A stretch of 64,000 nt of DNA from Trypanosoma brucei (lineage: Eukaryota): contig CP000069.1 of NCBI GenBank assembly GCA_000002445.1, forward strand, positions 128,001-192,000, written 5' to 3'. The position numbers and the translations under genes were made by a program. Within the stretch, counting starts at the first letter, position 1, and every line of letters begins with the position of its first letter. This document shows positions 1 through 46,110 of this stretch, piece after piece. A model generated the notes under the pieces. The model was not told where the DNA came from and made no database searches. It saw nothing but the letters and a program-made list of their open reading frames with translations.

Positions 1-1819
1 AAGTGTTGGAGAGATACACAGCAAGCACATAAAGTTGCTGCGCAAGGACAGGCAGTAAGTGTATTACGTTTCTCCTAAACAATTTCATGCGGGGTCGAAG
101 TGTCATAGGACTGATGAACACTAAATCTTTTCGGTCCAGAAGCCCTCCAGGCATGATACCAAATACTGCAGATACATCCCTGTTATCCTGTACTTGCTCA
201 AGGGATTGCGTCACATTCTCTGAAGATACTGTTAGGGGATGGAAAAATATTCTATTGTCAATATTCTCCGCTTCCTTGCCATGAACCTCGGCACCAAGGA
301 ACCACTTCCTGCTCGCACGTAATGCAATTTTATTATCTGCGAGAAGCAAAAAGAGGCCACTCAATGGCGCACCCACATGTACATTGGCACTCGAGCACTC
401 TGATACACCCCACGTTAGATGTCCTTCCCACAAAGGCGCTGGTCGGAAGCCATCCATTATACTCTTCATATATACCATACTGCCACCTTGATTGCATTCA
501 CACATGGCACCCTGTAATGCAACGGCCTCATTGCACTCACCACCAAAGTCACCAACCACAAGGTCATCAATCACGTAGCGACGCTGCTTGTACAGAGATT
601 CCCTGAATGATGTACGGTTCGTCAGCTGTGGGGCGTTATTCAGAGCTTCGAAGAGAACTTCTCCCGCAAGCCACCCATACACCATCATCTCACCTGCGTT
701 GTCGTCCTCAAGGTAGTGATCGGGTTTCTTAAAAAAGTTCCAGTCATTGTTTGTCCTGAGGTAGTTGTCCATGTCATGCTGGAAGCGCTGAATCAGTGAG
801 AACCGAGTATCGTTAGCGAGCGGCACTGTTCCAGTTGTGATTAGCTGTCCAGGAGTGAATGTACGATTAGCTAACGCCAATGCCTCACGCCACATCTTGA
901 TCAAAAAATTTTGCTGTAGTGAAGTAGAAAGAAGATACGCATTGGCAGTGCGGTTGTCCTGTGCTACCTTCTTGATGAACCACTTTGCTGTATTACCCAG
1001 GGATGAAAACAGCAATATAGCCTGTGGGCGCGTAGCAACAAATTGTCTCCACCTGGTGTTCAAATCATCCTCAGAGATATTTTGATTCTCACTCTCCTTC
1101 ACAACGAACATTCCACACAGCTCGCGACCCATCATTTCCAATATCTGCACAGTAAACTCATACGGTCCCATACTGGCGGTGCTGCTCTTCACGTGCATCA
1201 TACCTATTCGTGGGACACGGAGGTAAACAACAGCATAACGAATGAGGGCGAGGAGTTCAGCATTGGGTTCGACACTTATGAAATAAAGGTGAGGGTTCCA
1301 ACCACGGACCTCACTGGAGTACGCAACGGGAGCGAGGGCAACAAGATCATGTTCCTTCAGTTTATCACTGACCCACGAGACGTGATTAGTACCCAGCGGC
1401 CCGAATACAACTAATAACTTGTCTTCACTTTGATTCATTCCCTGCTGAAATATGTCCTCGATTGTCGCATTGGGTGATGGGGGACGGATGACAGATATTG
1501 TCGCATTAGAGCCCGTCTTCCAGCTGTGGGCACTCAGTGATGCGTCAAAACCGGCATTAAGATCGTTAACTTCATCGTCAGAATATTCCGGATTATACAT
1601 CATGGATAGCACTTTTACCGTCACATTACTCGCTTCCGCGCACACAGGTGGCATCCACATGAGTAGCAAAGGCAACAAGTGTAGCAGTGACATAGCAGTA
1701 ATGACAGGTGAGTGCTTGTACTTGCTGTAACGCCTTGCAGGGCTCCTTGCGGTAAGGTTCCGCCTGCAGTTTCCATGAGGGTACACACATCCTCTTCCAC
1801 CACCTTCCTGCCAGCACAT
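1..1819 (-). CDS. GRESAG4: receptor-type adenylate cyclase (GRESAG4-like), 5'-partial: N-terminal ~600 codons; the rest of the gene lies beyond the window start
   Basis: nt 1-1817 are near-identical to nt 11388-13204, the N-terminal half of the complete cyclase ORF 9385-13227. ATG (revcomp cat) is at 1817-1819. The same antisense ORF pattern is present as in the complete copies. The ORF track does not report it because it runs off the edge, so intactness of the frame was only spot-checked. Confidence 0.55.
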   Translation of the reverse strand, partial: MCWQEGGGRGCVYPHGNCRRNLTARSPARRYSKYKHSPVITAMSLLHLLPLLLMWMPPVCAEASNVTVKVLSMMYNPEYSDDEVNDLNAGFDASLSAHSWKTGSNATISVIRPPSPNATIEDIFQQGMNQSEDKLLVVFGPLGTNHVSWVSDKLKEHDLVALAPVAYSSEVRGWNPHLYFISVEPNAELLALIRYAVVYLRVPRIGMMHVKSSTASMGPYEFTVQILEMMGRELCGMFVVKESENQNISEDDLNTRWRQFVATRPQAILLFSSLGNTAKWFIKKVAQDNRTANAYLLSTSLQQNFLIKMWREALALANRTFTPGQLITTGTVPLANDTRFSLIQRFQHDMDNYLRTNNDWNFFKKPDHYLEDDNAGEMMVYGWLAGEVLFEALNNAPQLTNRTSFRESLYKQRRYVIDDLVVGDFGGECNEAVALQGAMCECNQGGSMVYMKSIMDGFRPAPLWEGHLTWGVSECSSANVHVGAPLSGLFLLLADNKIALRASRKWFLGAEVHGKEAENIDNRIFFHPLTVSSENVTQSLEQVQDNRDVSAVFGIMPGGLLDRKDLVFISPMTLRPRMKLFRRNVIHLLPVLAQQLYVLAVYLSNT

Positions 1820-2111
1820 ATTTTCGGGAATGTGTGACACTTTTCGTGTGTGAAATCTTATGTCCTAAGGAAGAATATCAAAAGAGGGAAAATAGAAATC
1901 AGTAAGATTACACTTCCAGACAGTTGGATGCTATAACAAGTTCCCGACAAAACCAAAACAATGCTTAAAAAGCAATGAAGGCACGTCAAGGTAGCGAGAG
2001 GCGACTCGTTTATGATGTCACTGTAAATTGCGAGCAAATGATAGAAAGGGACAACCGACACGCTGGTAGGTAATGGTGTCACACAAACAAACACGTATAT
2101 GTATTTCATGT
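1820..2111 (-). repeat. U5: conserved ~300-bp 5' flank found upstream of every full-length cyclase copy (also 13207-13553, 22619-22978, 34046-34347)
   Basis: Near-identical sequence in four copies; contains the same 83-93-aa spurious ORF each time. Confidence 0.8.
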
Positions 2112-4735
2112 GCGTTGCTGCTTCTTTCCCGCAAGGAAGTATTTAAGTGTGATGTGGGGCAAGAGTTTGGATTGTTTCTTATTTCGGTGCCGCAGTCACT
2201 TGTTTGTTGTTTTGTTTCCGCCAGCGTCTACCTCGGCTAATGCGTCTCGGCTCTTAATAATTTCTGTTGTGCCCTTCGCCTTTTGTGTGGCTGCCTGGCT
2301 GGCTGTTCCTCTCATATACTTCTTAAAGGCGCTTTCCAGACAGGAAAAGTTTCCCCTTGGGCACGAATGTCGCGTAGCACATGCAGTGGAAGAAGGGCGT
2401 AAGAACATGCGCGACGGAAGAACCGAATCTCATCCAGTTCCGCTTTCTCTTTTTTTTCTCCTTTGTACCCTACTTTACTTGCAAACGCCGCAATCATGTG
2501 GAAACACTTGGTCCCCTCTTATGACATCAATCATCTGCCTTTTGGGATGCATTGTCACTCCTCCCTTTTCCTTCATTCATCTTCGTGTTGTTGCGTCGTC
2601 ACTCACTCATCCGGTTAGACACACCCTCCACATCCATTCGCACCATTTTCCTCATATTCCGAGTCTCATGCAGCAGAGAGCATGTATTTATCCATTTTAT
2701 TTCTTTCCTTGGGTCCACCCAACAAGTTTCGTATTTGGACCGTAACACAAATTTCATTTCCTGGTCGCAACCCAAACGCCGTTCGCGATCAGACGAGTTT
2801 CAATTCCGGGTAATGGGCCCCTTTCCACTTTGAAATGATTGAACCCTCTTTTTCGCACTTCCAATGGTTGCTGCCACCGTCACCACACCTTCTCCACGTA
2901 GCGTTGGAAAGAAGTAAGAAATAATAAAAACGCATCTGAGCAACGCAGCAGCGATCAGCCAGTGGACCTCATCAGAGTTTGTGCCTCCAATCTCATTCCC
3001 AAACCAAAAAATTAATCGGGCCCGCATGCGGCACGAGGCGTCCGGCGACTACGGGGGTTTACAAAAGAAGGAAAGTGATGTAACAAAAGGAGTTACATAA
3101 ACATCGCGACCGCACGCACTCCGGCCATACAGGGCTGGAAAATTAATAAAACAACCCGCTCAGGGATAACAATTGCCCTTGAGGGAAAAAGGTTGGATGC
3201 CTGCAGCCGCACGAGTTCCGCTGCGATTCAGGTGAGTTTATCCTTTCCCCCTGAGGGTCGACAGTGTTTCCCTCCATTTGTTCCCTTCCCAAATAATATC
3301 TTCAGCACGTAGCAGTATTTTTGATATTCCAAAGCGGCTGCCAGTGCGTACACTCCTGCATGGGGGGAAAAGCCCCAAGTGAGGGCGGCAGATATGCGCA
3401 AGTAACAATCAGAGCCCATGCACGCAAACACACATGATGTAAAGGGAAGCATGTAACAGGTATGCCAAATGCTCAGTTGAGGTTACACACTGCAGCGACG
3501 TAGCCGCTCCCTCCCGCCACAACTCGCCGTAGCTCCTCATCGCACAGTTAAAACGTCAAGGGTTCAGTCTAGAATTACCACAAAATACGGATAAATGAGG
3601 TTTGTCCCTATAAAGGAGCGGCATTTCTGCACTCCCCTCGAGTGTCCAAACAGTGTTGTAAATAACGGAAGGATATTATAGGCTCAGCAATATTAACAGA
3701 GTGAACGTGTTACAAAACTCCCTCACAATACAATAATTAGTATAAGCTGCAATAACTGCGACGGTGAGGGAACTTTGTTATACTGCGAGGCAACGCGGGT
3801 TTCAGTACATAACTAAGCTCATGCATCGACATCACACTCTGGAGGGAATGGAGGCAATCACATACCTTAAATCCTTACGGCAACACAAATGAGTGAAGGG
3901 AAAGAAAGCATGCAACTGGTGAAACAACATGTAACATCAGCAATGCAGAGGGTGATAAGGGTTGTATATCCGAAGAGAGAGATACAACAGCCCACATAAC
4001 ACCCAACACATACAAACACACATGCAACATAACACTCATTATGAAAAAATATTTAAAGACACCGCTAGCATTAAGTGGATTCAAAAAGAAAAACGTGACG
4101 CAGACACACACGGAAACACAGTTTTGTACCCAAAAGGTTGCGGGATTGGGCGTGAGAGGTGGAATTAAAAAAAAATAAAATAAAATAGTCATGCACTCGC
4201 ACGCTTAAGGACAGACGTGTTGAAAAAGAAATGTTTCACCTTATTTTTCTTAAAGCCTCAAATGGCAAGGACACAAATAAAAAAGAGAGCCCTTAGGGAA
4301 AGTACATAGCTAATCCCGTTTTGTGATTACTCACAGAACAAAAACGTTTTGGTTAAATTAGAAGAAATGTTGAGCCGTCCTGTCTTCCATAAGTGTCGGA
4401 TTTGGAACAGTAAGAAACCAACCGGCGCTGACACGGCAAAACACATGCATGTGTTAATTCAGTGTCTTGAAAGACAACGCATGTGTAATCTAACAGAGGG
4501 CATGTTCCCTCTTAAGATTAGTATGTGCTTTAATGCAGAGGCAGCAGCCACCAAAAATAGAATGTAAAAAATGTAATAATAAATAGATGGCAAAAGATAA
4601 AAATAGATACAAAAGACAAACCCTACCGAGACTACGTTAAAATTCACTAACAACTACTACAATCGGTATGCTAATTAACTTTTCCGCCGAGTAAAACTAA
4701 GAGATTTGTACGCTTTATGACGTGCAACACTACCA
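2112..4735 (-). repeat. S spacer copy 1 (~2.6 kb intergenic segment between the 3' end of a degenerate cyclase and the U5 flank of the next full-length cyclase); other copies at 31444-34045, 42810-45407 and a truncated copy at 54421-55706
   Basis: Direct sequence comparison: the same blocks (e.g. MLPFTSCVFACMGSD-encoding stretch, CCFFPARKYLSVMWG-encoding stretch) recur in all copies in the same order. Confidence 0.8.
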
Positions 4736-6460
4736 CTAATGTAACGACGGAAGCGGACACCCAAAGTGGCCTTCTCTGAAATGTGAACCAACGAATGGAA
4801 CAATTATGATTGAGCCCTCTTCAGTACTCACAGAAGCTTCACTGCTCCCACTTTGAGCGCTACGGTTAGCGACACGCCCAACCTTAACTGCAATGCGACG
4901 CACCACTTCCTCACAGTAGGCGTCATCCCACTCGAATGCAGCTTCACGGGGAAGAGGCACACGCCAATGCTCACAAAGCGACGCCAGAAGATTCCCCCGT
5001 TGCGCTGCTTTAAAAGTTCGGAAAACAGACTGCAGTGAGTTCAATATCGATTGTGCTGATTCACTCAGCTCAGCACGTGAAGAACTGTGGTCGCTTGTGG
5101 AGGTTGTCGTGCCATCCTCGTCTTCAAAGAATTCGCGATCCAGCCGTAATGCAGCAAAGTTGCGGCCAGGCACGGCATTCAACTGGTACATTTCCACAGG
5201 ATCATTCACGCCGCGAAGTGCAACATCACCAAGTGCAGTGACATCAATTTGCTCACGCTCCTCAGCTGACAGTGACATGTAAACCTCATGCGTCATCAGC
5301 ACCTGACCACCATTTGCTACACTCTCTGTCCTTTCTGCCATGTTTGGAGTCCGCCCATAGTAGTCATATCCCTTCGTCACTTCATCGTGTCGGATGTCGC
5401 ACAACCCGGTGTGGATTCCAACACGTACACGCAGGCCATTCCACAAACGACTGTACACTTTAAGGTCCAACCGCGCAGTTGGCGGTGTGTACTTCTCGTC
5501 CTCCTCCGCACGCTGCTGCTCCAACTGCTGGTAAGAATCATCAACTGCATTTGTTCCCCAGTCATGATGCAAGAAACACAGCTGTAATTCCTGTGCGAGT
5601 TGGACGGCAGCGAAAGGACTCTTACTCGCTATCATGAACGAATCCCCAACAGTTTTGACTTCGTAGCACTTATACCTCGCAATCAGTGAACGAATCAAAT
5701 AGTGATGTGCCGCAACGGCATCGGGCATCAGTTCAGGGTGTGCAGCCCACAACGCAGTGCTGCTCTCAATGTCAGTAAATATTAGTGTCACGGGGTCAGT
5801 TTGTTCCTTGGGTGCAAGATTGTTATCACGGGCATTCCGGTGTGTTGCTAATATAACAACCACAAGAACCGTAACAAGCGGCACCAACATTACGACGAAG
5901 CCAACTGCAATAGCGGCAATTTGCTCAGTCATCTGTTGGATCCATCTCGGTTCATCATAGGTCACTGACGGTGTTGCAGACGACAGCGCAGAGGACACAA
6001 AAGGGTTTAGAACATGTGACATCGACCATACAAAAATATGCATCGCACCACAGTTGACAACAGTGCTTCGCCTCAAGTCAAGTTTCGTTCGTACACTTGT
6101 CTCCAAACGACCCATACATTGCAGGACACTTCCCATTGCGTATGCGATGGCAGACCCAAGTAGTGACAACGGTTTCCACTTCGACTCATTCTGCACGATC
6201 TTGCGGAACTCACGTACTGTTTTGGACTCCGTGATCTTATCCCTCCGATGTGACAGATTCGTTGCGAATAGCAAGGGGTTAGAAAATGGCTTTTCATGGA
6301 AGGCATTCACGAGTTCGCCGTGGATTGGTGCATCATCGAAGAATAGGACAAAGACGTGCGCATTACGGTGTTTGTTAGGGTGAAAGAGGATTATGGGGAT
6401 ATTATATGGGATAAGACCTACAACCAATACCTGACATGCAGTTGACAGCTTGTCTCTCAA
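4736..6460 (-). CDS. open TM + class III adenylate cyclase catalytic domain frame of P1 (574 codons from a TTG; first in-frame ATG at 6134-6136 would give a 466-aa ectodomain-less cyclase)
   Basis: Contains a TM helix (IAAIAVGFVVMLVPLVTVLVVVIL) and cyclase motifs FTDIESSTALW, KTVGDSFMIA, VGIHTG, DYYGRTPNMAERTES. The ORF-track start codon is TTG (revcomp caa at 6458-6460), not ATG. Confidence 0.55.
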   Translation of the reverse strand: MRDKLSTACQVLVVGLIPYNIPIILFHPNKHRNAHVFVLFFDDAPIHGELVNAFHEKPFSNPLLFATNLSHRRDKITESKTVREFRKIVQNESKWKPLSLLGSAIAYAMGSVLQCMGRLETSVRTKLDLRRSTVVNCGAMHIFVWSMSHVLNPFVSSALSSATPSVTYDEPRWIQQMTEQIAAIAVGFVVMLVPLVTVLVVVILATHRNARDNNLAPKEQTDPVTLIFTDIESSTALWAAHPELMPDAVAAHHYLIRSLIARYKCYEVKTVGDSFMIASKSPFAAVQLAQELQLCFLHHDWGTNAVDDSYQQLEQQRAEEDEKYTPPTARLDLKVYSRLWNGLRVRVGIHTGLCDIRHDEVTKGYDYYGRTPNMAERTESVANGGQVLMTHEVYMSLSAEEREQIDVTALGDVALRGVNDPVEMYQLNAVPGRNFAALRLDREFFEDEDGTTTSTSDHSSSRAELSESAQSILNSLQSVFRTFKAAQRGNLLASLCEHWRVPLPREAAFEWDDAYCEEVVRRIAVKVGRVANRSAQSGSSEASVSTEEGSIIIVPFVGSHFREGHFGCPLPSLH

Positions 6461-8230
6461 ATTAGGACCTTCACCACTCGCAACAAAGAAGCTTAGTGAT
6501 GTGTTAAAGTTGTCAAGTGTTTTTGCAACATATTCCTAATTCCTCTCGTATCACCACCACGACACACAATGACATGCATTCTTCCTGCACCATTTTGTAT
6601 AATATGCTCAACTATCATAAATAACTGCTGCTCATTTGTTGGTAACAGGTGGATCACATTCCTTCTGGGGTTACTCGGTTGTGATGTGAGTATTATAGGA
6701 TCGATGAATGCCATACCCTTCGTCCGCAGTAACGAATTATCCACGACACCAAGCACAGCAGTTACAACTCGTTTCTCAACATCATTATACAGAGTTGCAC
6801 AAGTTTCGTAAGATTTCGAGGATAGTCAGTGTAAAAAGAAACCATCAGAGTGACCCAGTTGACCTTTGCCAACAACATGAGGGACACCATCGTATACCAT
6901 CTATGCAGCACGCAGTGCCTTTGGGTCATCGGTTATATTAAACATGACCCCACTCAATGGGCCATACAACTGTGGCAGGTCTCGATAACAGCGAGATGAA
7001 CCAAGGGTTAATATAGCTTCCTTCATAGGGTGTAGATGGAGATCCTTTTCCACCTTCTTCATGCACATCACACTCCCACCTTGGTTACGTAAACACGATA
7101 CACCCCGCTCTCCCGCCATATTACGGCACTCACCACCAAAGTCACCAACCACAATATTATCAATTGGATAACGACGTTTATTGTACAGTGATTTCATAAA
7201 TACACCCCTGCTAGTTAGCTATTCGTGACAACTCAGTGCCTGTTTCAATACCTCTTCAGCAACCCATCTGTTCAATGTCAGCTCAGCTTCAGCGTCTTGC
7301 TCGGTGAAGTTATTTTCGTTAATATCCCACCTTGTGCGCTTATAGTTATTACCATTAACCTTTAACAACATAGTCATATCATCCCTGAAACGCCTGACAG
7401 CTTTGTATGTGTCACCCTTCGTAATTAGGTCAGCCCCAGTTATTATTATTTTATCAGCCACAAACTCGTCTCTACCCAATTTATATGCCCACTTGTTCTT
7501 GATGGCGTGTTGGAGTGCAGAGGGTGTATGAATAAATATTCGCCTCTTGTCCTGTGGTCATATAATCATTTCATGGGGAATCTCTTCATATCAGGGATTG
7601 GAGAACCAAATACAATCATTCCCTGAGGTCCAGTATCGGCAACCTTATTCCACTCCGCACTGAAGCTACTGTTATCCGATTCCTTACCAATTTGACTCTT
7701 CAATGCAAAAAAATAACAACTAAACAACTTGCGATTCATCCGTGTTGCCAACTACGCAGCAAGCTTATACTCATCATCACCATAAGAAACATCTTTCAAA
7801 TACATGAAATCCAGTCGGTGTGACCGTAACTGAGTGATAGCATAACGGAAAAGAGCAAGCATCTCAACGGCGAGTGATGCTTCCAGGAGTCATAAATTGG
7901 GATTCCAACTGTGTACCCTACTGAATCCTGTGAAGGGTAAGAAATCAACTACACATTCTTTTCATTGAAATATTTGGTTAAGTTGAGAGTATTTTTGTCA
8001 CCCACAGGTTCCAGTATAATGGCAAGCTCATCACCGTAATTGGTTGTACAGATGGCGTATCCAAAGTCATCCATAGACGGAACATGTGCAACTGCCACAG
8101 ACACACGGAAGCGACTTCCCGTTGGTAATAGATGCGTTGAAACCTGCAATAATAGGATCACATACCTTTGCTGAAATCTTGTCACTGTATAACATGTTGT
8201 ATACCCTTACCCATATTAATCCATTTGCAA
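4736..8230 (-). pseudogene. P1: divergent GRESAG4-like adenylate cyclase, N-terminal extracellular region broken by at least 5 frameshifts/stops but colinear with the full-length gene; C-terminal TM+cyclase half intact
   Basis: Short minus-strand ORFs 7949-8185, 7219-7479, 6901-7197, 6493-6756 are each homologous, in order, to consecutive parts of the full-length cyclase ectodomain (e.g. YPIDNIVVGDFGGEC vs YVIDDLVVGDFGGEC; RRNVIHLLP shared). The frames differ between pieces. Confidence 0.75.
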
Positions 8231-37300: not shown

Positions 37301-38154
37301 ATGATTCTTACCAGCAGTTTGAGCAGCAGCGTGCGGAGGAGGACGAGATGTACACACCGCCAACTGCGCGGTTGGACCCTAAAGTGTACAGTCGTTTGTG
37401 GAATGGCCTGCGTGTACGTGTTGGAATCCACACCGGGTTATGCGACATCCGACACGATGAAGTGACGAAGGGATATGACTACTATGGGCGGACTCCAAAC
37501 ATGGCAGCAAGGACGGAGAGTGTAGCAAATGGTGGTCAGGTGCTGATAACAGGCTCAACATACCTGTCACTGTCGGCTGAGGAGCGTGAGCAAATTGATG
37601 TCACTGCACTTGGTGGTGTGCCGCTACGTGGTGTGCCCGATCCTGTGGAAATGTACCAGTTGAATGCCGTGCCTGGTCGCAACTTTGCTGCATTACGGCT
37701 GGAACGTGAAATCGAGGATGAAGAAGATGTTGGAACAGGTAGTAGCGCTAGTGAGTCGAGCTTTAATGAGTGTGGTTTAACTGCCACCGCTCAACAGGTT
37801 GCTGGTTGTATTGATGCCCTCATTGGCGCATTTCCAGTTATCCAGCGACAGAAGATGCTTGCAACATTTTGTGAGCGTTGGCATGTTAAGAAGCCCCCAG
37901 GGGTGGATGCTTGGAATGAAGCCAGTTGTCGCTGTGTTACCCGTCGGATTGCTGCAAAGGTGGGTTGTGTTATGGATTTTGGAACGAGGAGCTCCTCCAG
38001 CAGTGTGACATCATTGGAAAGGGGTGGAAGTCTCTTTTCACCTGGAGGAGCTACTGTTGCAACGGTTGCTTCATCTTCAAACTTTTCCTATGTTGAGGGA
38101 AAACGTGGCGCCACTGATTTGATTGACCTGGAAAGTGTTGGTAGTACCTGTTAA
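34348..38154 (+). CDS. GRESAG4: receptor-type adenylate cyclase GRESAG4-like, full length (F3)
   Basis: 1268-aa frame from ATG 34348 (the ORF-track start 34327 is a GTG). Same architecture and motifs. The C-terminal tail differs from F1/F2 (ends ...YVEGKRGATDLIDLESVGSTC, earlier stop). Confidence 0.9.
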   Translation: MSWQEGGGRGCVCPHGNCRRNLTARSPARRYSMYKHSPVITAVSLLHLLPLLLMWMPPVCAENGNVTVKVLSMMYSLGFTTPEVNAINAGFDASLSAHSWKTGSGATISVIRPPSPNATIEDIFQQGVKQSKDELLVVFGPLGTNHVSWVSDKLKEHDLVALAPVAYSSEVRGWNPHLYFISVEPNAELLALIRYAVVYLRVPRIGMMHVKSSTASMGPYEFTVQILEMMGRHLCGVFVVKESENQNISEDDLNTRWRQFVATRPQAILLFSSLGNTAKWFIKKVAQDNRTANAYLLSTSLQQNFLINMWREALVLANRTFTPGQLITTGTVPLANDTRFSLIQRFQRDVNNYLDTNTDWKGFAKPDHYLEDDNAGEMMVYGWLAGEVLFQALNNAPQLTNRTSFMESLYKQRRYVIDDLVVGDFGGECNEAVALQGAMCKCNQGGSMVYMKSIMDGFRPAPLWEGHLTWGVSECSSANVHVGAPLSGLFLLLADNKIALRASRKWFLGAEVHGKEAENIDNRIFFHPLTVSSENVTQSLEQVQDNRDVSAVFGIMPGGLLDRKDLVFISPMTLRPRMKLFRRNVIHLLPVLAQQLYVLAVYLSNTSSRGVNALIRSEQAGEISSLLYKSLVTFGVPLDSSKTLGDGDPISSYLSGNGDVFTIGLTLTDVAAVARHLQTHRRARVFIPFNDLAMYYDEFVAAFNASKESIASSERLLFATSFPHWAKKNTKSDVVASFHRIVNESHWDPLTFLGFVTTRLLQVILPNMRKVNAELLADRIYTESNIKVDDMRFGPFSDVECVSGTSVSANECASNFGATNISVWSMARVLNSSVPILQRGMTPSMDYIISGGSRLTGSQIAGIGIGCIAGLIPFIALGVLLRITLRNARDNNLAPKEPTDPVTLIFTDIESSTALWAAHPELMPDAVATHHYLIRSLIGRYKCYEVKTVGDSFMIASKSPFAAVQLAQELQLCFLQHDWGTNAVDDSYQQFEQQRAEEDEMYTPPTARLDPKVYSRLWNGLRVRVGIHTGLCDIRHDEVTKGYDYYGRTPNMAARTESVANGGQVLITGSTYLSLSAEEREQIDVTALGGVPLRGVPDPVEMYQLNAVPGRNFAALRLEREIEDEEDVGTGSSASESSFNECGLTATAQQVAGCIDALIGAFPVIQRQKMLATFCERWHVKKPPGVDAWNEASCRCVTRRIAAKVGCVMDFGTRSSSSSVTSLERGGSLFSPGGATVATVASSSNFSYVEGKRGATDLIDLESVGSTC

Positions 38155-39319
38155 TATCCTTCATGACATTGATGTATGTTTTGTTGTAAATGGATAATAA
38201 TGTTTATATAATATGTGCAAACTTTTTTTAGATACACTTCATATAGTGTTCTTCTAATACTTTGCTCCCCAACTTTTTGCGCATGCAATATTTCCCTCAT
38301 ATGTTGGGTGTTTAAATATTTTTATGCACAGGGATGCATTTTATTTCTGAAATGGGCACACCATTTTTTGATTGTAATATATGAAAGTCGTTAATTTTCT
38401 GTTTAACGTAGTGAGGGATGTGTGCATCCACGCCACCATTAATGCTTAAATTTTCGTAAATAATATCTTATTTAAATTTAAATTGCCGTCCGTGTGGGCC
38501 GTTGTCAAGTGAGGCGCTCCACCTCTAATGTGTTGTTAGGAGCTGTGTCCTTGCATTTAAAAATGTGTTTGATAATAAGGTGATGCCCATGAAGCGGAGG
38601 CTATAGCGAAGTAAAAGTGACCGCCGGTGCTTATTCCTCGCGTCTACCCTAATCTTTTTTTTTCATTCGGAGATGCTGGCTTGTAAGGTATCTCTTAATC
38701 ACCTTGCTGCATGTAACTATTTGCAATATCTGATACATGTGTATAACTTCCTTTATATTTCTCTATGGTTGCTGAAACTTTCCTCATATTCTCTCGCACA
38801 CTCTCTTTTACTCCTAGACAGTCAAGGAATATGAAACTGAGCAATGTCTGCCGTGATGTTGTGAGTTAAAATTTACAGTTTGAGTGTTAACTGTGACTGT
38901 TAGTGTGCTGTGTTTTTGTTAATGGCAATCCAGTTTATGATACTGTAATGTTCTATCTACACATTTACCCTTATGCCTAGTGATGTTATATGTTTTTGTA
39001 TCGGATACATGAATGATATGTGGGTGTATGGGGGAATGTGTGTTGAACTACTTTCTCGCTGTTATGGTTTGTGTAATGTTATCCACTACAGTAGTTCCCT
39101 TTCCCACGCTCTTACATATACATATGCAGTCTATTAATCTTGTACCAATACTTTGTTATTATGCCCTTTTTGTCCTGTAGTTTGAAAGTTGAATTACGTT
39201 GAGTTACTAGTATCACGGTTACCTCCATGCGTGAATTACATGCTAGAGATGGCGTAGTCACTTACGTAGTGTTTTTCTATGTTACTACAGCTGCTGGCTG
39301 AAGTATAGCTTGCAAATGG
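38155..39319 (+). repeat. T spacer copy 3
   Basis: Near-identical to 26798-27949. Confidence 0.75.
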
Positions 39320-42300
39320 ATTATTATGGGTAAGGGTATGCAACATGTTATACAGTGACAAGATCTCAGCAAAGGTATGTGATCCTATTATTGCAGGTTT
39401 CAACGCATCTATTACCAACGGGAAGTCGCTTCCGTGTGTCAGTGTGGCAGTTGCATATGTTCCGTCTCTGGATGACTTTGGATACGCCATCTGTACAACC
39501 AATTACGGTGATGAGTTTGCTATTATACTGGAATCTGTGGGTGACAAAAATACTCTCAACTTAACCAAATATTTCAATGAAAAGAATGCGTAGTTGATTT
39601 CTTACCTTTCACAGGATTCAGTAGGGTACACAGTTGGAATCCCAATTTATACCTCCTGGAAGCACCACTCGCCGTTGAGATGCTTGCTCTTTTCCGTTAT
39701 GCTATCACTCAGTTACGGTCACACCGACTGGATTTCATGTATTTGAAAGATGTTTCTTATGGTGATGATGAGTATAAGCTTGCTGCGTAGTTGGCAACAC
39801 GGATGAATCGCAAGTTGTTTAGTTGTTATTTTTTTGCATTGAAGAGTCAACTTGATAAGGAATCGGATAACAGGAGCTTCAGTGCGGAGTGTAATAAGGT
39901 TGCCGATACTGGACCTCAGGGAATGATTGTATTTGGTTCTCCAATCCCTGATATGAAGAGATTCCCCATGAAATGATTATATGACCACAGGACAAGAGGC
40001 GAATATTTATTCATACACCCTCTGCACTCCAACACGCCATCAAGAACAAGTGGGCATATAAATTGGGTAGAGACGAGTTTGTGGCTGCTAAGATAATAAT
40101 AACTGGGGCTGACCTAATTACGAAGGGTGACACATACAAAGCTGTCAGGCGTTTCAGAGATGATATGACTATGTTGTTAAAGGTTAATGGTAATAACTAT
40201 AAGCGCACAAGGTGGGATATTAACGAAAATAACTTCACCGAGCAAGACGCTGAAGCTGAGCTGACATTGAACAGATGGGTTGCTGGAGAGGTATTGAAAC
40301 AGGCACTGAGTTGTCACGAATAGCTAACTAGCAGGGGTGTATTTATGAAATCACTGTACAATAAACGTCGTTATCCAATTGATAATATTGTGGTTGGTGA
40401 CTTTGGTGGTGAGTGCCGTAATAAGGCGGGAGAGCGGGGTGTATCGTGTTTACGTAACCAAGGTGGGAGTGTGATGTGCGTGAAGAAGGTGGAAAAGGAT
40501 CTCCATCTGCACCCTATGAAGGAAGCTATATTAACCCTTGGTTCATCTCGCTGTTATCGAGACCTGCCACAGTTGTAGGGCCCATTGAGTGGGGTCATGT
40601 TTAATATAACCGATGACCCAAAGGCACTGCGTACTGCATAGATGGTATACGATGGTGTCCCTCATGTTGTTGGCAAAGGTCAGCTGGGTCACTCTGATAG
40701 TTTCTTTTTACACTGACTATCCTCGAAATCTTACGAAACTTGTGCAACTCTGTATAATGATGTTGAGAAACGAGTTGTAACTGCTGTGCTTGGTGTCGTG
40801 GATAATTCGTTACTACGGACGAAGGGTATGGCATTCATCGATCCTATAATACTCACATCACAACCGAGTAACCCCAGAAGGAATGTGATCCACCTGTTAC
40901 CAACAAATGAGCAGCAGTTATTTATGATAGTTGAGCATATTATACAAAATGGTGCAGGAAGGATGCATTTCATTGTGTGTCGTGGTGGTGATACGAGAGG
41001 AATTAGGAATATGTTGCAAAAACACTTGACAACTTTAACACATCACTAAGCTTCTTTGTTGCGAGTGGTGAAGGTCCTATTTTGAGAGACAAGCTGTCAA
41101 CTGCATGTGAGGTATTGGTTGTAGGTCTTATCCCATATAATATCCCCATAATCCTCTTTCACCCTAACAAACACCGTAATGCGCACGTCTTCGTCCTGTT
41201 CTTCGATGATGCACCAATCCACGGCGAACTCGTGAGTGCCTTCCATGAAGAGCCATTTTCTAACCGCTTGCTATTCGCAACGAATCTGTCACATCGGAGG
41301 GATAAGATCACGGAGTCCAAAACAGTACGTGAGTTCCGCAAGATCGTGCAGAATGAGTCGAAGTGGAAGCCGTTGTCACTACTTGGGTCTGCCATCGCAT
41401 ACGCAATGGGAAGTGTCCTGCAATGTATGGGTCGTTTGGAGACAAGTGTACGAACGAAACTTGACTTGAGGCGAAGCACTGTTGTCAACTGTGGTGCGAT
41501 GCATATTTTTGTATGGTCGATGTCACATGTTCTAAACCCTTTTGTGTCCTCTGCGCTGTCGTCTGCCACACTGTCAGTGACCTATGATGAACCGAGATGG
41601 ATCCAACAGATAACTGAGCAAATTGCCGCTATTGCAGTTGGCTTCGTCGTAATCTTGGTGCCGCTTGTTACGGTTCTTGTGGTTGTTATATTAGCAACAC
41701 ACCGGAATGCTCGTGATAACAATCTTGCACCCAAGGAACAAACTGACCCCGTGACACTAATATTTACTGACATTGAGAGCAGCACTGCGTTGTGGGCTGC
41801 ACACCCTGAACTGATGCCTGTTGCCGTTGCAACACATCACTATTTGATTCGTTCACTGATTGGGAGGTATAAGTGCTACGAAGTCAAAACTGTAGGGGAT
41901 TCGTTCATGATAGCGAGTAAGAGTCCTTTCGCTGCCGTCCAACTCGCACAGGAACTACAGCTGTGTTTCTTGCAGCATGACTGGGGAACAAATGCAGTTG
42001 ATGATTCCTACTGGGAATTTGAGCAGCAGCGTGCGGAGGAGGACGAGAAGTACACACCGCCAACTGCGCGGTTGGACCTCAAAGTGTACAGTCGTTTGTG
42101 GAATGGCCTGCGTGTACGTGTTGGAATTCACACCGGGTTGTGCGATATCCGACACGATGAAGTGACGAAGGGATATGACTACTATGGGCGGACTCCAAAC
42201 ATGGCAGCAAGGACGGAGAGTGTAGCAAATGGTGGTCAGGTGCTGATAACGCATGAGGTTTACATGTCATTTTCAGCTGAGGAGCGTGAGCAAATTGATG

Positions 42301-42809
42301 TCACTGCACTTGGTGATGTTGCACTTCGTGGCGTGAATGATCATGTGGAAATGTACCAGTTGAATGCCGTGCCTGGTCGCAACTTTGCTGCATTACGGCT
42401 GGAACGTGAACTCTTTGATGAAGACGAGGATGGCACGACAACCTCCACCAGCGACCACAGTTCTTCACGTGCGGAGCTGAGTGAATCAGCACAATCGATA
42501 TTGAACTCACTGCAGTCTGTTTTCCGAACTTTTAAAGCAGCGCAACGGGGGAGTCTTCTGGCGTCGCTTTGTGAGCGTTGGCGTGTGCCTCTTCCCCGTG
42601 AAGCTGCATTCGAGTGGGATGACGCCTACTGTGAGGAAGTGGTGCGTCGCATTGCAGTTAAGGTTGGGCGTGTCGCTGACCGTAGCGCTCAAAGTGGAAG
42701 CAGTGAAGCTTCTGTGAGTACTGAAGAGGGCTCAATCATAATTGTTCCATTCGTTGGTTCACATTTCAGAGAAGGCCACTTTGGGTGTTCGCTTCCGTCG
42801 TTACATTAG
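39320..42809 (+). pseudogene. P3: degenerate divergent adenylate cyclase paralog, N-terminal half fragmented, C-terminal TM+cyclase half open
   Basis: Fragment ORFs 39345-39593, 39791-39976, 40063-40323, 40345-40578, 40786-41049 in different frames, each homologous in order to the F ectodomain, then the 575-codon frame 41082-42809. Confidence 0.75.
41082..42809 (+). CDS. TM + cyclase catalytic domain frame of P3 (575 codons from a non-ATG start; first in-frame ATG about 109 codons in)
   Basis: TM IAAIAVGFVVILVPLVTVLVVVIL plus cyclase motifs. The tail is QRGSLLASLCERWRVPLPREAAFEWDDAYCEEVVRRIAVKVG, homologous to but divergent from the F tail. Confidence 0.55.
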   Translation: MRDKLSTACEVLVVGLIPYNIPIILFHPNKHRNAHVFVLFFDDAPIHGELVSAFHEEPFSNRLLFATNLSHRRDKITESKTVREFRKIVQNESKWKPLSLLGSAIAYAMGSVLQCMGRLETSVRTKLDLRRSTVVNCGAMHIFVWSMSHVLNPFVSSALSSATLSVTYDEPRWIQQITEQIAAIAVGFVVILVPLVTVLVVVILATHRNARDNNLAPKEQTDPVTLIFTDIESSTALWAAHPELMPVAVATHHYLIRSLIGRYKCYEVKTVGDSFMIASKSPFAAVQLAQELQLCFLQHDWGTNAVDDSYWEFEQQRAEEDEKYTPPTARLDLKVYSRLWNGLRVRVGIHTGLCDIRHDEVTKGYDYYGRTPNMAARTESVANGGQVLITHEVYMSFSAEEREQIDVTALGDVALRGVNDHVEMYQLNAVPGRNFAALRLERELFDEDEDGTTTSTSDHSSSRAELSESAQSILNSLQSVFRTFKAAQRGSLLASLCERWRVPLPREAAFEWDDAYCEEVVRRIAVKVGRVADRSAQSGSSEASVSTEEGSIIIVPFVGSHFREGHFGCSLPSLH

Positions 42810-45407
42810 TGGTAGTGTTGCACGTCATAAAGCGTACAAATCTCTTAGTTTTACTCGGCGGAAAAGTTAATTAGCATACCGATTGTAGTAGTTGTTAGTG
42901 AATTTTAACGTAGTCTCGGTAGGGTTTGTCTTTTGTATCTATTTTTATCTTTTGCCATCTATTTATTATTACATTTTTTACATTCTATTTTTGGTGGCTG
43001 CTGCCTCTGCATTAAAGCACATACTAATCTTAAGAGGGAACATGCCCTCTGTTAGATTACACATGCGTTGTCTTTCAAGACACTGAATTAACACATGCAT
43101 GTGTTTTGCCGTGTCAGCGCCGGTTGGTTTCTTACTGTTCCAAATCCGACACTTATGGAAGACAGGACGGCTCAACATTTCTTCTAATTTAACCAAAACG
43201 TTTTTGTTCTGTGAGTAATCACAAAATGGGATTAGCTATGTACTTTCCCTAAGGGCTCTCTTTTTTATTTGTGTCCTTGCCATTTGAGGCTTTAAGAAAA
43301 GTAAGGTGAAACATTTCTTTTTCAACACGTCTGTCCTTAAGCGTGCGAGTGCATGACTATTTTTTTTAAACATTCCACCTCTCACGCCCAATCCCGCAGC
43401 CTTTCGGGTACAAAACTGTGTTTCCGTGTGTGTCTGCGTCACGTTTTTCTTTTTGAATCCACTTAATGCTAGCGGTGTCTTTAAATATTTTTTCATAATG
43501 AGTGTTATGTTGCATGTGTGTATGTATGTGTTGGGTGTTATGTGGGCTGTTGTATCTCTCTCTTCGGATATACAACCCTTATCACCCTCTGCATTGATGT
43601 TACATGTTGTTTCACCAGTTGCATGCTTTTTTCCCCTTCACTCATTTGTGTTGCCGTAAGGATTTAAGGTATGCGATTGCCTCCATTCCCTCCAGAGTGT
43701 GATGTCGATGCATGGGCTTAGTTATGCACTGAAACCCGCGTTGCCTCGCAGTATAACAAAGTTCCTTCACCATCACAGTTATTGCAGCTTATACTAATTA
43801 TAGTATTGTGAGGGAGTTTTGTAACACGTTCACTCTGTTAATATTGCTGAGCCTATAATATCCTTCTGTTATTTACAACACTGTTTGGACACCCGAGGGG
43901 AGTGCAGAAATGCCGCTCCTTTATAGGGACAAACCTCATTTATCCGTATTTTGTGGTAATTCAAGACTGAACCCTTGACGTTTTAACTGTGTGATGAGGA
44001 GCTACGACGAGTTGTGGCGGGAGGGAGCGTCTACGTCGCTGCAGTGTGTAACCTCAACTGAGCATTTGGCATAACCTCTACATGCTTCCCTTTACATCAT
44101 GTGTGTTTGCGTGCATGGGCTCTGATTGTTACTTGCGCATATCTGCCGCCCTCACTTGGGGCTTTTCCCCCCATGCAGGAGTGTACGCACTGGCAGCCGC
44201 TTTGGAGTATCAAAAATACTGCTACGTGCTGAAGATATTATTTGGGAAGGGAACAAATGGAGGGAAAGACTGTCGACCTTCAGGGGGAAAGGATAAACTC
44301 ACCTGAATCGCAGCGGAACTCGTGCGGCTGCAGGCATCCAACCTTTTTCCCTCAAGGGCAATTGTTATCCCTGAGCGGGTTGTTTTATTAATTTTCCAGC
44401 CCTGTATGGCCGGAGTGCGTGTGGTCGCGATGTTTATGTAACTCCTTTTGTTACATCACTTTCCTTCTTTTGTAAACCCCCGTAGTCGCCGGACGCCTCG
44501 TGCCGCATGCGGGCCCGATTAATTTTTTGGTTTGGGAATGAGATTGGAGGTACAAACTCTGATGAGGTCCACTGGCTGATCGCTGCTGCGTTGCTTAGAT
44601 GCGTTTTTATTATTCCTTACTTCTTTCCAACGCTACGTGGAGAAGGTGTGGTGACGGTGGCAGCAACTGTTGGAAGTGCGAAAAAGAGGGCTCAATCATT
44701 TCAAAGTGGAAAGGGGCCCATTACCCGGAATTGAAAACTCATCTGATCGCGAACGGCGTTTGGGTTGCGACCAGGAAATGAAATTTGTGTTACGGTCCAA
44801 ATACGAAACTTGTTGGGTGGACCCAAGGAAAGAAATAAAATGGATAAATACATGCTCTCTGCTGCATGAGACCCGGAATATGAGGAAAATGGTGCGAATG
44901 GATGTGGAGGGTGTGTCTAACCGGATGAGTGAGTGACGACGCAACAACACGAAGATGAATGAAGGAAAAGGGAGGAGTGACAATGCATCCCAAAAGGCAG
45001 ATGATTGATGTCATAAGAGGGGACCAAGTGTTTCCGCATGATTGCGGCGTCTGCAAGTAAAGTAGGGTACAAAGGAGAAAAAAAAAGAGAAAGCGGAACT
45101 GGATGAGATTCGGTTCTTCCGTCGCGCATGTTCTTACGCCCTTCTTCCACTGCATGTGCTATGCGACATTCGTGCCCGAGGGGAAACTTTTCCCGTCTGC
45201 AAAGCGCCTTTAAGAAGTATATGAGAGGAACAACCAGCCAAGCAGCCACACAAAAGGCGAAGGACACAACAGAAATTATTAAGAGCCGAGACGCATTAGC
45301 CGAGGTAGACGCTGGCGGAAGCAAAACAACAAACAAGTGACTGCGGCACTGAAATAAGAAACAATCCAAACTCTTGCCCCACATCACACTTAAATACTTC
45401 CTTGCGA
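42810..45407 (+). repeat. S spacer copy 3 (terminal copy; departs from the consensus at 45407 and runs into the B repeat)
   Basis: Identical to 31444-34045 up to ...acttccttgc, after which the U5/F unit is absent and the B repeat follows. Confidence 0.75.
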
Positions 45408-45419
45408 AAAAGAAGAAAA

Positions 45420-45658
45420 GAGGGAAAAACAATGCGCGTAATAACAAATGATAAGTGAGCGCATGTCTTGTGACAATCATGTGGTGGCTGCTGCAGATGG
45501 GGAGCCAACAGCAGAGAACCAAATGAAAGCAAGTATCCTCTACAAAATGGAGGACAGATGAAAAGGGTTATGTGGTTAAGGGGATTCAACAAAATAAACT
45601 AAAAGGGTCAACTATACATGAGCAAATGCAGCCACACAAACACACATGGAGCATGCGA
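45420..45658 (+). repeat. B boundary repeat, second copy
   Basis: Matches 22390-22618. Confidence 0.7.
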
Positions 45659-46110
45659 TGTGAAGTTAACTGTTTGGTTGTGCCTGGTTGAGGCGTACAA
45701 ACAATTTTTTTTGTTTTTCTGAATTTTTGTTCTCTGCTTTTTCTTGCTTGTCTGCGGGTGGAAGCGTAGTGTAGGGGCTGAGAAGCAGCTAAGCCAACAG
45801 CCCCGGTGCGAGATGTGACGCAGAGAAACTGGTAGCACGCCGTTTCATCGTCAGTTATAGAGTAATCCAGGGGAGAAAAAAGCGAAACGCGCCAAGAGCA
45901 CCGCCGAGAAGCAAAGAAAAAAGAAGGAAGGGGAAAACATTCCGCAGGGGTCGATTTCCATTCTTTCGTTTCCTCCCTCATTTCCTCGCTTCTGTCTGAG
46001 TAACCAAAACACGTGGGAGGAAGTTTGCACACCTGTGCGTTTCCTTTCTATCTGTTTTTCTCTTAAAAGAAAAAAAAAACAGGAATACACCTCTTATCCA
46101 AACTCGTTCT

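What the first reader, a model, noticed from the sequence alone, without database searches (positions are those of the whole stretch)
1..45665. Two mirror-image adenylate-cyclase arrays form a large inverted duplication around an 8.8-kb gene-free core
The left side reads F0-S-P1-T-F1-U5 on the minus strand. The right side reads U5-F2-T-P2-S-U5-F3-T-P3-S on the plus strand. So the same multi-gene unit order occurs in both orientations, pointing away from the central spacer 13554-22389. The arms are at least 13.5 kb (the left arm runs off the window) and are not perfect copies: F1 is more F3-like than F2-like at its N-terminus, so this is an old inverted segmental duplication, not an assembly mirror artefact. 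The right array is bracketed by a ~230-bp direct repeat (B, 22390-22618 and 45420-45658) that is absent from the left inner boundary. That suggests B was the substrate or footprint for the expansion on that side. In trypanosomes this geometry matches a divergent polycistronic strand-switch region, which would put a Pol II start zone in the core.
Basis: partly seen in the sequence, partly recalled or inferred. Interest (0 to 1): 0.6.

Follow-up and report, generated by a model that had tools for sequence, protein, structure and literature searches.

The report
Mirror-image cyclase arrays around known promoter
The window is a published stretch of Trypanosoma brucei chromosome 6 in which two mirror-image arrays of adenylate-cyclase genes are read outwards from a shared, already mapped two-way transcription start region, so the finding is real but ordinary.

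Summary
Window 1-13570 is the reverse complement of 36166-22619 (96.7% over 13.6 kb). Each arm is a tandem array of an 11.37-kb unit holding one intact GRESAG4 adenylate cyclase and one frame-broken cyclase pseudogene. The arms lie 9,048 bp apart.

The window is T. brucei brucei TREU927 chromosome 6, 128,001-192,000, genes Tb927.6.280 to about .400. The strand-switch reading is correct and already published. Kolev et al. 2010 (Table S14) list Tb927.6.300->.270 (-) and .310->.340 (+) as divergent Pol II units.

Their data also show the core is not transcript-free. Two processed transcripts run leftwards and three rightwards, leaving a silent 3.9-kb centre (16753-20640). My base-composition switch point (19158) falls inside that centre.

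An assembly artefact is excluded. The arms differ by 3.3% in a mosaic pattern. The T. b. equiperdum assembly carries the centre (inverted F1 start, core, repeat B, right arm), and a third contig carries the left half.

Two sub-claims fail. F1 is closer to F2 than to F3; the mirror pairs F1-F2 and F0-F3 are the closest. Repeat B brackets the whole right arm even where that arm has a single unit, so B is not a footprint of the tandem expansion.

Novelty is low.

The parts
1..13570 (-). Left arm of the palindrome, which runs off the window. Read on the minus strand: upstream leader, F1, P1, spacer S, leader, then the 5' part of F0.
   Evidence: Inverted match to 36166-22619, 96.7%. Tandem match 1-2123 = 11385-13510.
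2..1819 (-). F0 = Tb927.6.280, first 606-607 aa. The rest lies left of the window.
   Evidence: The window part is identical to the N-terminus of XP_845156. tblastn placement.
4796..8282 (-). P1 = Tb927.6.290, a frame-broken full-length cyclase pseudogene of a divergent clade. Its longest ORF is 4736-6460.
   Evidence: tblastn pieces lie in different frames. The N-terminal part is 24-34% identical to F1 and the C-terminal part 56%. Pfam cyclase domain. No close annotated protein elsewhere.
9385..13206 (-). F1 = Tb927.6.300, an intact receptor-type adenylate cyclase (GRESAG4), 1273 aa.
   Evidence: The translation from the first ATG equals XP_845157 exactly. Pfam PF25495, PF25493 and PF00211.
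13571..22403 (.). Unique core between the arms, with no protein-coding potential.
   Evidence: It is 98-99% identical in T. b. equiperdum.
13374..16752 (-). Two processed non-annotated transcripts running leftwards: Tb6.NT.19 (15163->13374) and Tb6.NT.20 (16752->15298).
   Evidence: Kolev 2010 Table S7 coordinates minus 128,000.
16753..20640 (.). Centre of the core with no processed transcript on record. This is the probable two-way Pol II start zone. The composition switch point is at 19158.
   Evidence: It is the gap between the minus and plus transcripts. The cumulative G+T excess has its minimum at 19158, going from -82/kb to +72/kb.
20641..22791 (+). Three processed transcripts running rightwards: Tb6.NT.21, NT.22 and NT.23. 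NT.23 spans B and ends in the leader of F2.
22404..22626 (+). Direct repeat B, inner copy. It abuts the inner edge of the right arm.
   Evidence: 98.7% identical to 45437-45659. Boundary alignment.
22619..45415 (+). Right arm: two tandem units, 22671-34050 and 34041-45415.
   Evidence: T. b. equiperdum has one unit here.
22979..26797 (+). F2 = Tb927.6.310, intact cyclase, 1272 aa.
   Evidence: Equals XP_845158 exactly.
28222..31383 (+). P2 = Tb927.6.320, cyclase pseudogene.
   Evidence: tblastn. Pfam on the ORF 29719-31131.
34348..38154 (+). F3 = Tb927.6.330, intact cyclase, 1268 aa.
   Evidence: Equals XP_845159 exactly.
39590..42809 (+). P3 = Tb927.6.340, cyclase pseudogene, the last ORF of the right-hand unit.
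   Evidence: tblastn. Pfam. Kolev Table S14.
45437..45659 (+). Direct repeat B', outer copy, 22 bp beyond the end of the right arm.
43400..47100 (.). Convergent strand-switch region where the right array meets the Tb927.6.350 unit. This is CTU20 of Tschudi 2012. The composition maximum is at 44935.
   Evidence: CTU20 at 171,400-175,100, minus 128,000..

Best explanation
This is a palindromic segmental duplication in T. brucei TREU927 chromosome 6 (128,001-192,000).

The repeated unit is 11.37 kb. It holds one intact GRESAG4 receptor adenylate cyclase and one cyclase pseudogene. The unit stands in tandem on both sides of a 9-kb unique spacer, in opposite orientations. There are two units on the right. 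On the left the window shows one full unit plus the start of a second, and published data imply two.

The spacer is an ordinary trypanosome divergent strand-switch region. RNA polymerase II starts in both directions in its central ~3.9 kb. It first makes a few short processed non-coding transcripts on each side. It then reads each cyclase array as a short polycistronic unit (Tb927.6.300->.270 leftwards, .310->.340 rightwards). Each unit ends at a convergent region.

The practical effect is four intact copies of one cyclase subtype served by one two-way promoter.

Shown:
- the geometry;
- the identity of the genes;
- the published transcription units and transcripts;
- the composition switch;
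- conservation of the centre in the T. b. equiperdum assembly, and of the left half in a third contig.

Inferred:
- A two-unit array was copied as a block, because mirror-position genes are the closest pairs.
- The copies keep exchanging sequence by gene conversion and change unit number by unequal crossing-over.
- The right arm may be the derived copy. It could have arisen by two replication template switches, or by integration of a circle at B. Either would leave the 223-bp B repeat on both its sides. I rate this last step about 0.35.
For: Identity of the locus:
- The ORFs from their first ATG equal XP_845157, XP_845158 and XP_845159 exactly, and the F0 fragment equals the start of XP_845156.
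- ORF 46486-47343 is exactly Tb927.6.350, and the two 316-aa ORFs are exactly XP_845161/2.

Coordinate offset of 128,000:
- The mirror pair Tb6.NT.18 / Tb6.NT.24 solves to 128,001.
- 6 of 10 published splice sites then follow an AG. This is the best of 2,001 offsets tried, with the next best at 5.

Palindrome and tandem structure.

Published divergent Pol II units: Kolev 2010 Table S14 and text.

Transcripts in the core point outwards and leave 16753-20640 silent.

The G+T excess flips at 19158, from -73 to -90 per kb on the left to +64 to +76 per kb on the right.

Independent assemblies:
- T. b. equiperdum is colinear with window 12971-34050 at 97.6%, then continues at 45415-48228. The core is 98-99% identical.
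- A third contig covers 15514-2080 of the left half.

Block duplication: protein differences are F1-F2 54 and F0-F3 55, against F0-F1 77, F2-F3 80, F1-F3 84 and F0-F2 66.

Ongoing exchange:
- The identity profile is a mosaic.
- The equiperdum right unit shares private variants with the TREU927 left arm.
- One genome carries an F/P fusion through the shared 734-bp patch.

B abuts the inner edge of the right arm and follows its outer end by 22 bp. It has no third copy.
Against: - The left arm leaves the window after 13.6 kb. That it has two units rests on the published unit Tb927.6.300->.270, on F0 being a complete protein, and on CTU19 lying where the mirror image predicts. I did not see that sequence.
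- I did not see the raw 5'-triphosphate or histone tracks for this region. Reads in the near-identical arms map ambiguously, so the evidence for initiation is the published table plus the unique-sequence transcripts.
- No GT-rich promoter-like tract or long G run lies in the silent centre, so no sequence motif for initiation was found.
- The direction of the duplication is open. The lengths of the three rightward core transcripts (558/773/589 nt) resemble two other trios on chromosome 6 at 32-34 kb and 76-78 kb. If the right flank of the core is a dispersed module that normally precedes this cyclase type, the right arm would be the older one.
Confidence: 0.9

Rival explanations
1. Assembly mirror artefact: one array was assembled twice in opposite orientations, or two haplotypes or chromosomes were joined.
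For: Repeats of 11 kb at 96-98% identity are hard to assemble. The T. b. gambiense chromosome 6 assembly seems to omit the region: its record starts about 14 kb before the Tb927.6.400 homologue, and its Tb927.6.350 protein is annotated as partial.
Against: - The arms differ at 3.3% of positions in a patchwork, and the four cyclases are four different proteins.
- The unique core joins both arms in T. b. equiperdum.
- The core joins the left arm in a third contig.
- Published processed transcripts cross both core-arm boundaries: NT.19 ends at 13374 and NT.23 ends at 22791.
Confidence: 0.02
2. The palindrome works as a hairpin source of double-stranded RNA and siRNAs, like the seven long inverted repeats of Tschudi et al. 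2012, and so silences the cyclase genes.
For: [quoted passage not shown] The two convergent regions that flank the palindrome are siRNA sources: CTU19 with 9,011 reads and CTU20 with 420 reads in wild type and 3,598 in dcl1-/-.
Against: - Transcription leaves the centre in both directions, so no single transcript should contain both arms.
- The genome-wide survey of inverted repeats lists none on chromosome 6. Its members are 99-100% identical, against 96.7% here.
- The cyclase mRNAs are detected at about 14 copies per cell for the gene group.
- The siRNAs are reported for the convergent ends, which is the usual pattern for all such regions.
Confidence: 0.05
3. The region was once a single leftward transcription unit with a termination and re-start gap (Tb927.6.390 ... 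.350, gap, .300 ... .270). The right arm is a later inverted copy dropped into that gap beside a promoter that fires both ways, which gave it expression at once. It remains an excisable cassette bracketed by B.
For: - Removing 22627-45659 leaves every gene from 59.3 kb leftwards on the minus strand.
- B abuts the inner edge of the right arm, B' follows its outer end, and there is no B on the left, neither at the inner boundary nor at the outer end seen in L003.
- The unit number of the right arm differs between genomes: two in TREU927 and one in T. b. equiperdum.
- Kolev et al. describe Pol II start sites as intrinsically two-way.
Against: - The 3.2 kb right of the switch point already has plus-strand composition and three spliced plus-strand transcripts.
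- The transcript trio may be part of an older dispersed module.
- No genome lacking the right arm was found. This is compatible with the main explanation and concerns history only.
Confidence: 0.35
4. The gene-free core is a centromere or another chromosome-maintenance element rather than a promoter region.
For: From my own knowledge, T. brucei centromeres lie in strand-switch regions. The core is long (9 kb) and has no genes.
Against: There are no tandem repeats at all in the core. There is no retroelement or other Pfam signal. GC content is 40-48%, not strongly AT-rich. It carries processed Pol II transcripts.
Confidence: 0.02

Closest known systems
Divergent strand-switch regions (two-way Pol II start regions) of T. 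brucei, for example the neighbouring Tb927.6.390/.400 (HpHbR) region
   Same: Genes point away from a 5-10 kb gene-poor region. Published 5'-triphosphate RNA enrichment exists for these units, and this pair of units is itself in the published list. Short processed transcripts flank a silent centre. Strand composition flips.
   Different: Here the first genes on the two sides are copies of each other, so the two units are near mirror images. Most such regions separate unrelated genes.
Long inverted repeats IR1-IR7 of T. brucei (Tschudi et al. 2012)
   Same: Large inverted repeats within one chromosome of the same genome.
   Different: Those are 0.4-10 kb, 99-100% identical and yield siRNAs from the arms. 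This one is at least 13.6 kb per arm (probably about 22.8 kb) and 96.7% identical. It is absent from their list and is transcribed outwards from the spacer.
Other GRESAG4 tandem arrays of T. brucei (Jackson 2007; Jackson et al. 2010), for example Tb927.6.760-.800 and Tb927.7.6050-.6080
   Same: Tandem cyclase genes with mosaic identity caused by gene conversion. Tb927.6.760-.800 also starts at a divergent region.
   Different: Those are described as one-directional arrays. This locus has an array on each side of the start region, and each unit carries a pseudogene of a second cyclase type.
Inverted duplications made by replication template switching, or by repeat-mediated amplification in Leishmania (my own knowledge, not tested)
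   Same: An inverted copy lies next to its source. A short direct duplication (B, 223 bp) brackets the copy.
   Different: This is a stable chromosomal feature shared by at least two T. brucei lineages, not a drug-selected amplicon. The 9-kb spacer is long, and no junction signature beyond B was found.

Membership tests
T. brucei divergent strand-switch region / Pol II transcription start region | Flanking protein-coding genes lie on opposite strands and point away from the region. | tested here: met
   F1 is on the minus strand (13206->9385) and F2 on the plus strand (22979->26797). Both are intact and identical to annotated proteins.
T. brucei divergent strand-switch region / Pol II transcription start region | Experimental evidence of Pol II initiation (5'-triphosphate RNA ends) in both directions. 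| tested here: met
   Taken from the literature, not recomputed. Kolev 2010 Table S14 lists Tb927.6.300->.270 (-) and .310->.340 (+) as 'Divergent'. The text says enrichment was seen at every divergent unit.
T. brucei divergent strand-switch region / Pol II transcription start region | Enrichment of H2A.Z, H2B.V, H4K10ac and BDF3 chromatin. | not testable with these tools
   No ChIP data are available here. Kolev et al. state that their sites coincide with the histone-marked sites of Siegel 2009.
T. brucei divergent strand-switch region / Pol II transcription start region | The strand asymmetry of base composition and of processed transcripts switches inside the region. | tested here: met
   The cumulative G+T excess has its minimum at 19158. 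Minus-strand transcripts end at 16752 and plus-strand transcripts begin at 20641.
GRESAG4 receptor-type adenylate cyclase | Extracellular periplasmic-binding-protein-like domains plus a class III cyclase catalytic domain in a protein of about 1250 aa. | tested here: met
   Pfam PF25495 (2e-49), PF25493 (2e-132) and PF00211 (6e-45) in F1. Exact matches to proteins named GRESAG 4.
siRNA-producing long inverted repeats (Tschudi 2012) | Near-identical arms (99-100%) and listing among IR1-IR7. | tested here: not met
   The arms are 96.7% identical. No chromosome 6 entry appears in their Table 3.
siRNA-producing long inverted repeats (Tschudi 2012) | Small RNAs arise from the arms and the spacer on both strands. 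| not testable with these tools
   Only counts for the flanking convergent units CTU19 and CTU20 are available.
Centromeric strand-switch region | AT-rich tandem repeat arrays and degenerate retroelements. | tested here: not met
   There are no tandem repeats in 13400-22800, no Pfam hit in the six-frame stretches, and GC content is 40-48%.

The most novel reading that the evidence does not exclude
The right arm is a copy-number-variable cassette bracketed by 223-bp direct repeats (B). On this reading it was created when an inverted copy of the cyclase array landed on the idle side of a two-way Pol II promoter and so gained expression at once ('promoter capture by inverted duplication'). B-mediated loop-out or re-integration would then let T. 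brucei lineages gain or lose whole cyclase transcription units.
Probability: 0.25. Interest if true: 0.4.

Novelty: already known. Interest (0 to 1): 0.15.

Why it matters
Little is new for the field. The sequence, the gene models and the two divergent transcription units have been public since 2005-2010, and the neighbouring start region is already an experimental model.

The modest value lies in the fine structure.
- One two-way start region serves two mirror-image copies of the same gene array.
- Mirror-position genes are the closest relatives.
- Unit number differs between T. brucei lineages.
- A 223-bp direct repeat brackets only one arm.

Together these make the locus a tidy natural case for asking two questions: how segmental duplications become expressed in a genome without gene-specific promoters, and how cyclase gene dosage changes between strains.

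It also warns that reads in these arms map ambiguously. Expression or ChIP values for Tb927.6.280-.340 are group values.

Tried and rejected
- **Wrong first coordinate guess.** I first placed the window at about 51 kb or 75.5 kb on chromosome 6 by matching the convergent units CTU18 and CTU19. Polyadenylation-site coordinates then showed Tb927.6.200 at 90 kb and .420 at 200 kb. The mirror pair of novel transcripts and the splice-site AG test fixed the offset at 128,000.
- **Coding remnants in the core.** I repeated it on concatenated stop-free stretches of 40 aa or more and found no hits.
- **Core against the rest of the window.** blastn with word size 7 and tblastx found nothing.
- **Other scans.** tRNA, Rfam and tandem-repeat scans of the window found nothing relevant.
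- **TREU927 contig look-ups.** Exact-protein look-ups for Tb927.6.350, XP_845158 and XP_845149 were not on record, so I could not read the sequence left of the window.
- **T. b. gambiense.** The closest cyclase there lies downstream, next to HpHbR and procyclin, not in the palindrome. That assembly seems to lack the region.
- **Walking left in T. b. equiperdum.** The homology search with the P ORF returned no close T. brucei-group protein to use as an anchor.
- **ORC-binding supplement of Tiengwe 2012.** Nothing on this region.
- **Promoter-like sequence.** A search for GT-rich tracts or G runs in the silent centre found none. The only strongly skewed tract is at 14424-14481.
- **Literature.** No paper in the library describes this palindrome as such.
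Full report
**What is there.**
A self-comparison of the window shows that 1-13570 is the reverse complement of 36166-22619, at 96.7% over 13,597 aligned columns. It also matches 45415-34048 in reverse, from position 2121, at 96.5%.

The right side is a tandem pair of 11.37-kb units (22671-34050 and 34041-45415, 97.4%). The left side is tandem as well (1-2123 = 11385-13510, 95.0%).

The arms end at 13570 and 22619, 9,048 nt apart. The innermost 100 nt are only 89% complementary.

A 223-bp direct repeat, B, lies at 22404-22626 and 45437-45659 (98.7%). A word-7 BLAST finds no third copy.

**What the unit contains.**
The long ORFs carry the two periplasmic-binding-protein-like domains and the class III cyclase domain of trypanosome receptor adenylate cyclases.

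tblastn with F1 shows that each 'P' is not a short gene. It is a full-length second cyclase broken by frame changes. Its N-terminal half is 24-34% identical to F, and its C-terminal half about 56%. It also carries a 734-bp patch at about 94% nucleotide identity, which looks like a gene-conversion tract.

The P ORF has no close annotated protein in any T. brucei-group genome. The best match is 51%, in T. congolense. So each unit holds one intact cyclase and one cyclase pseudogene.

**Where the window comes from.**
- From their first ATG, F1, F2 and F3 are identical to XP_845157, XP_845158 and XP_845159 of T. brucei brucei TREU927. The F0 fragment is identical to the start of XP_845156.
- ORF 46486-47343 is exactly Tb927.6.350. 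The two 316-aa lectin-domain ORFs are exactly XP_845161/2.
- Kolev et al. 2010 group Tb927.6.170.280.300.310 and .330 as one multi-copy cyclase. With the accession order, this gives F0=.280, P1=.290, F1=.300, F2=.310, P2=.320, F3=.330 and P3=.340.
- Their polyadenylation table puts Tb927.6.200 at 90 kb and .420 at 200 kb.
- The novel transcripts Tb6.NT.18 (minus) and Tb6.NT.24 (plus) are mirror images. This solves the offset as 128,001.
- With an offset of 128,000, six of ten published splice sites sit directly after an AG. That is the best of 2,001 offsets tried, with the next best at five. The three copies of the repeated S transcript then share the same upstream sequence.

The window is chromosome 6, 128,001-192,000.

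**Is the core a transcription start region?**
This is already published. Kolev et al. 2010 Table S14 lists Tb927.6.300->.270 (-) and Tb927.6.310->.340 (+) as 'Divergent' Pol II transcription units. The text states that 5'-triphosphate RNA ends were enriched at every divergent unit, and at all sites marked by the histone variants of Siegel et al. 2009.

Their Table S7 also shows that the core is not silent. All five transcripts below carry a spliced leader and a poly(A) tail.

| Transcript | Window coordinates | Strand |
|---|---|---|
| Tb6.NT.19 | 15163->13374 | minus |
| Tb6.NT.20 | 16752->15298 | minus |
| Tb6.NT.21 | 20641-21199 | plus |
| Tb6.NT.22 | 21310-22083 | plus |
| Tb6.NT.23 | 22202-22791 | plus |

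This leaves 16753-20640 as the only part with no processed transcript.

Independently, the cumulative excess of G+T on the plus strand falls through the left arm and the left part of the core (-73 to -90 per kb). It reaches its minimum at 19158 and then rises (+64 to +76 per kb) up to 44935. Composition and published transcripts therefore agree on a start zone of about 3.9 kb. The switch point lies some 1.2 kb right of the spacer's midpoint.

I found no motif that would explain initiation. There is no GT-rich tract and no long G run in the centre.

**Is the core otherwise empty?**
It has no ORF above 140 aa, no tRNA and no Rfam family. It has no Pfam hit in any stop-free stretch of 40 aa or more on either strand. 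It has no tandem or internal repeat and no similarity to the rest of the window. This argues against a centromere, a retroelement graveyard or a decayed gene.

**Artefact?**
No.
- The arms differ at 3.3% of positions in a patchwork, and the four cyclases are four distinct proteins.
- The T. b. equiperdum assembly (CM010677.1, 79,047-102,865) is colinear with window 12971-34050 at 97.6%. That stretch comprises the inverted start of F1, the whole core, B and one unit. The alignment then continues at 45415-48228 with B' and Tb927.6.350. The core is 98-99% identical.
- A 17.4-kb contig filed under Schistosoma mansoni (NW_017386323.1) is plainly trypanosome DNA. It covers window 15514-9815 and 5839-2080, which is the left half. 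It is 98.2% identical to T. b. equiperdum over the region the two share, the left part of the core and the start of the left arm.

**History.**
Mirror-position genes are the closest pairs.

| Pair | Protein differences |
|---|---|
| F1-F2 | 54 |
| F0-F3 | 55 |
| F0-F2 | 66 |
| F0-F1 | 77 |
| F2-F3 | 80 |
| F1-F3 | 84 |

This fits a two-unit array copied as a block, not two arrays that expanded separately.

Later exchange is evident.
- In the T-P-S part, the two right-hand units of TREU927 are up to 100% identical to each other.
- The single right-hand unit of T. b. equiperdum shares private variants with the TREU927 left arm.
- In the third genome, F and P are fused through the shared 734-bp patch and only one unit is present.

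Unit number is thus variable: 2 on the right in TREU927, 1 in T. b. equiperdum, and 1 chimeric unit on the left in the third genome.

**Repeat B.**
The unit-to-unit junction carries no B, only about 28 bp of imperfect microhomology. In T. b. equiperdum B and B' bracket a single unit. B is therefore not the footprint of the tandem expansion.

B ends exactly where the right arm begins (22619-22626). B' starts 22 bp after the right arm ends. The left inner boundary has no B, and neither does the left outer flank seen in the third genome.

A short direct duplication around an inverted copy is what two replication template switches would leave: out of the template just after B, then back in just before it. 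Integration of a circle by a crossover in B would leave the same pattern. Either would make the right arm the derived copy. It would then have been inserted into what was a leftward termination and re-start gap, beside a promoter that fires both ways.

This is inference, and I rate it about 0.35. One clue points the other way. The three rightward core transcripts (558/773/589 nt) have near-twins in length at 32-34 kb and 76-78 kb of chromosome 6. The right flank of the core may therefore be an older dispersed module. I could not read those regions.

**Flanks.**
- The right array ends at a convergent region. The composition maximum is at 44935, and CTU20 of Tschudi et al. 2012 (171.4-175.1 kb) corresponds to window 43.4-47.1 kb. 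It gave 420 siRNA reads in wild type.
- The mirror position of the end of P3 is about -6.6 kb. This falls at the edge of CTU19 (115-122 kb, 9,011 reads).
- The third genome shows leucine-rich-repeat ORFs on the opposite strand beyond the left array.
- Both short cyclase units are therefore closed by convergent regions.
- Tschudi et al. surveyed TREU927 for long inverted repeats and list seven, none on chromosome 6. This palindrome was probably missed because its arms are only 96.7% identical.
- Because transcription leaves the centre in both directions, a hairpin transcript is unlikely.

**Verdict.**
The main interpretation, an old inverted duplication around a divergent Pol II start region, is correct. 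However, the locus, its gene models and its transcription units are already in the literature. The new details are the block duplication, the one-sided B repeat, the unit-number differences and the 3.9-kb silent centre. They are descriptive.

Interest is low.

Noticed in passing
window 54405-59304 (minus strand): A fifth, isolated copy of the pseudogene part of the unit (P4 = Tb927.6.390, with flanks, 4.9 kb). It is in left-arm orientation and 97-98.6% identical to the array copies. It is the first ORF of the Tb927.6.390->.360 unit.
   Followed up: partly
window about 59292 (between 57.4 and 62.2 kb): A second divergent strand-switch region, with its composition minimum at 59292. It is the shared promoter of the Tb927.6.390-.360 and Tb927.6.400-.440 (HpHbR) units. 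That promoter was shown in 2024 to be silenced one allele at a time under trypanosome-lytic-factor selection (PMC11796357). The segment at 59-61 kb is unusually GC-rich (0.53).
   Followed up: partly
L003 (NW_017386323.1, Schistosoma mansoni RefSeq assembly), whole contig: This contig, and the 'S. mansoni' proteins Smp_112590 and XP_018644084, are trypanosome DNA, so they are contamination of that assembly. The contig holds the left half of this palindrome from another T. brucei-group genome.
   Followed up: yes
L003 2300-6064; window 9815-10548 and 5109-5839: In that genome the intact cyclase and the pseudogene are fused in frame through the shared 734-bp catalytic-domain patch. This gives a 1254-aa chimeric cyclase and deletes about 4.7 kb. 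The patch therefore acts as a recombination site.
   Followed up: partly
Chromosome 6 at 32.2-34.3 kb and 76.0-78.3 kb (outside the window); window 20641-22791: The three novel transcripts right of the core centre (558/773/589 nt) have near-twins in length at two other places on chromosome 6: 540/772/584 nt and 492/772/693 nt, both on the minus strand. The right flank of the core may be a dispersed module. I could not check the sequence.
   Followed up: no
window 51096-54348: Two identical 316-aa invariant-glycoprotein (IGP family, DUF5075 lectin domain) genes lie in a 1.49-kb-period tandem duplicate that is 99.9% identical.
   Followed up: no
window 23000-24500, 34350-35850 and 11700-13200: The first ~1.5 kb of the intact cyclase genes, which encodes the outer part of the extracellular domain, is the most divergent part of the unit (88-96% against 97-100% elsewhere). 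Amino-acid differences cluster at residues 51-150. This may reflect diversifying selection or old alleles kept apart from gene conversion.
   Followed up: partly
L002 (T. b. gambiense FN554969.1, 14,217-37,954): The T. b. gambiense chromosome 6 record begins only about 14 kb before the Tb927.6.400 homologue, and its Tb927.6.350 protein is annotated as partial. The whole palindrome seems to be missing from that assembly.
   Followed up: partly
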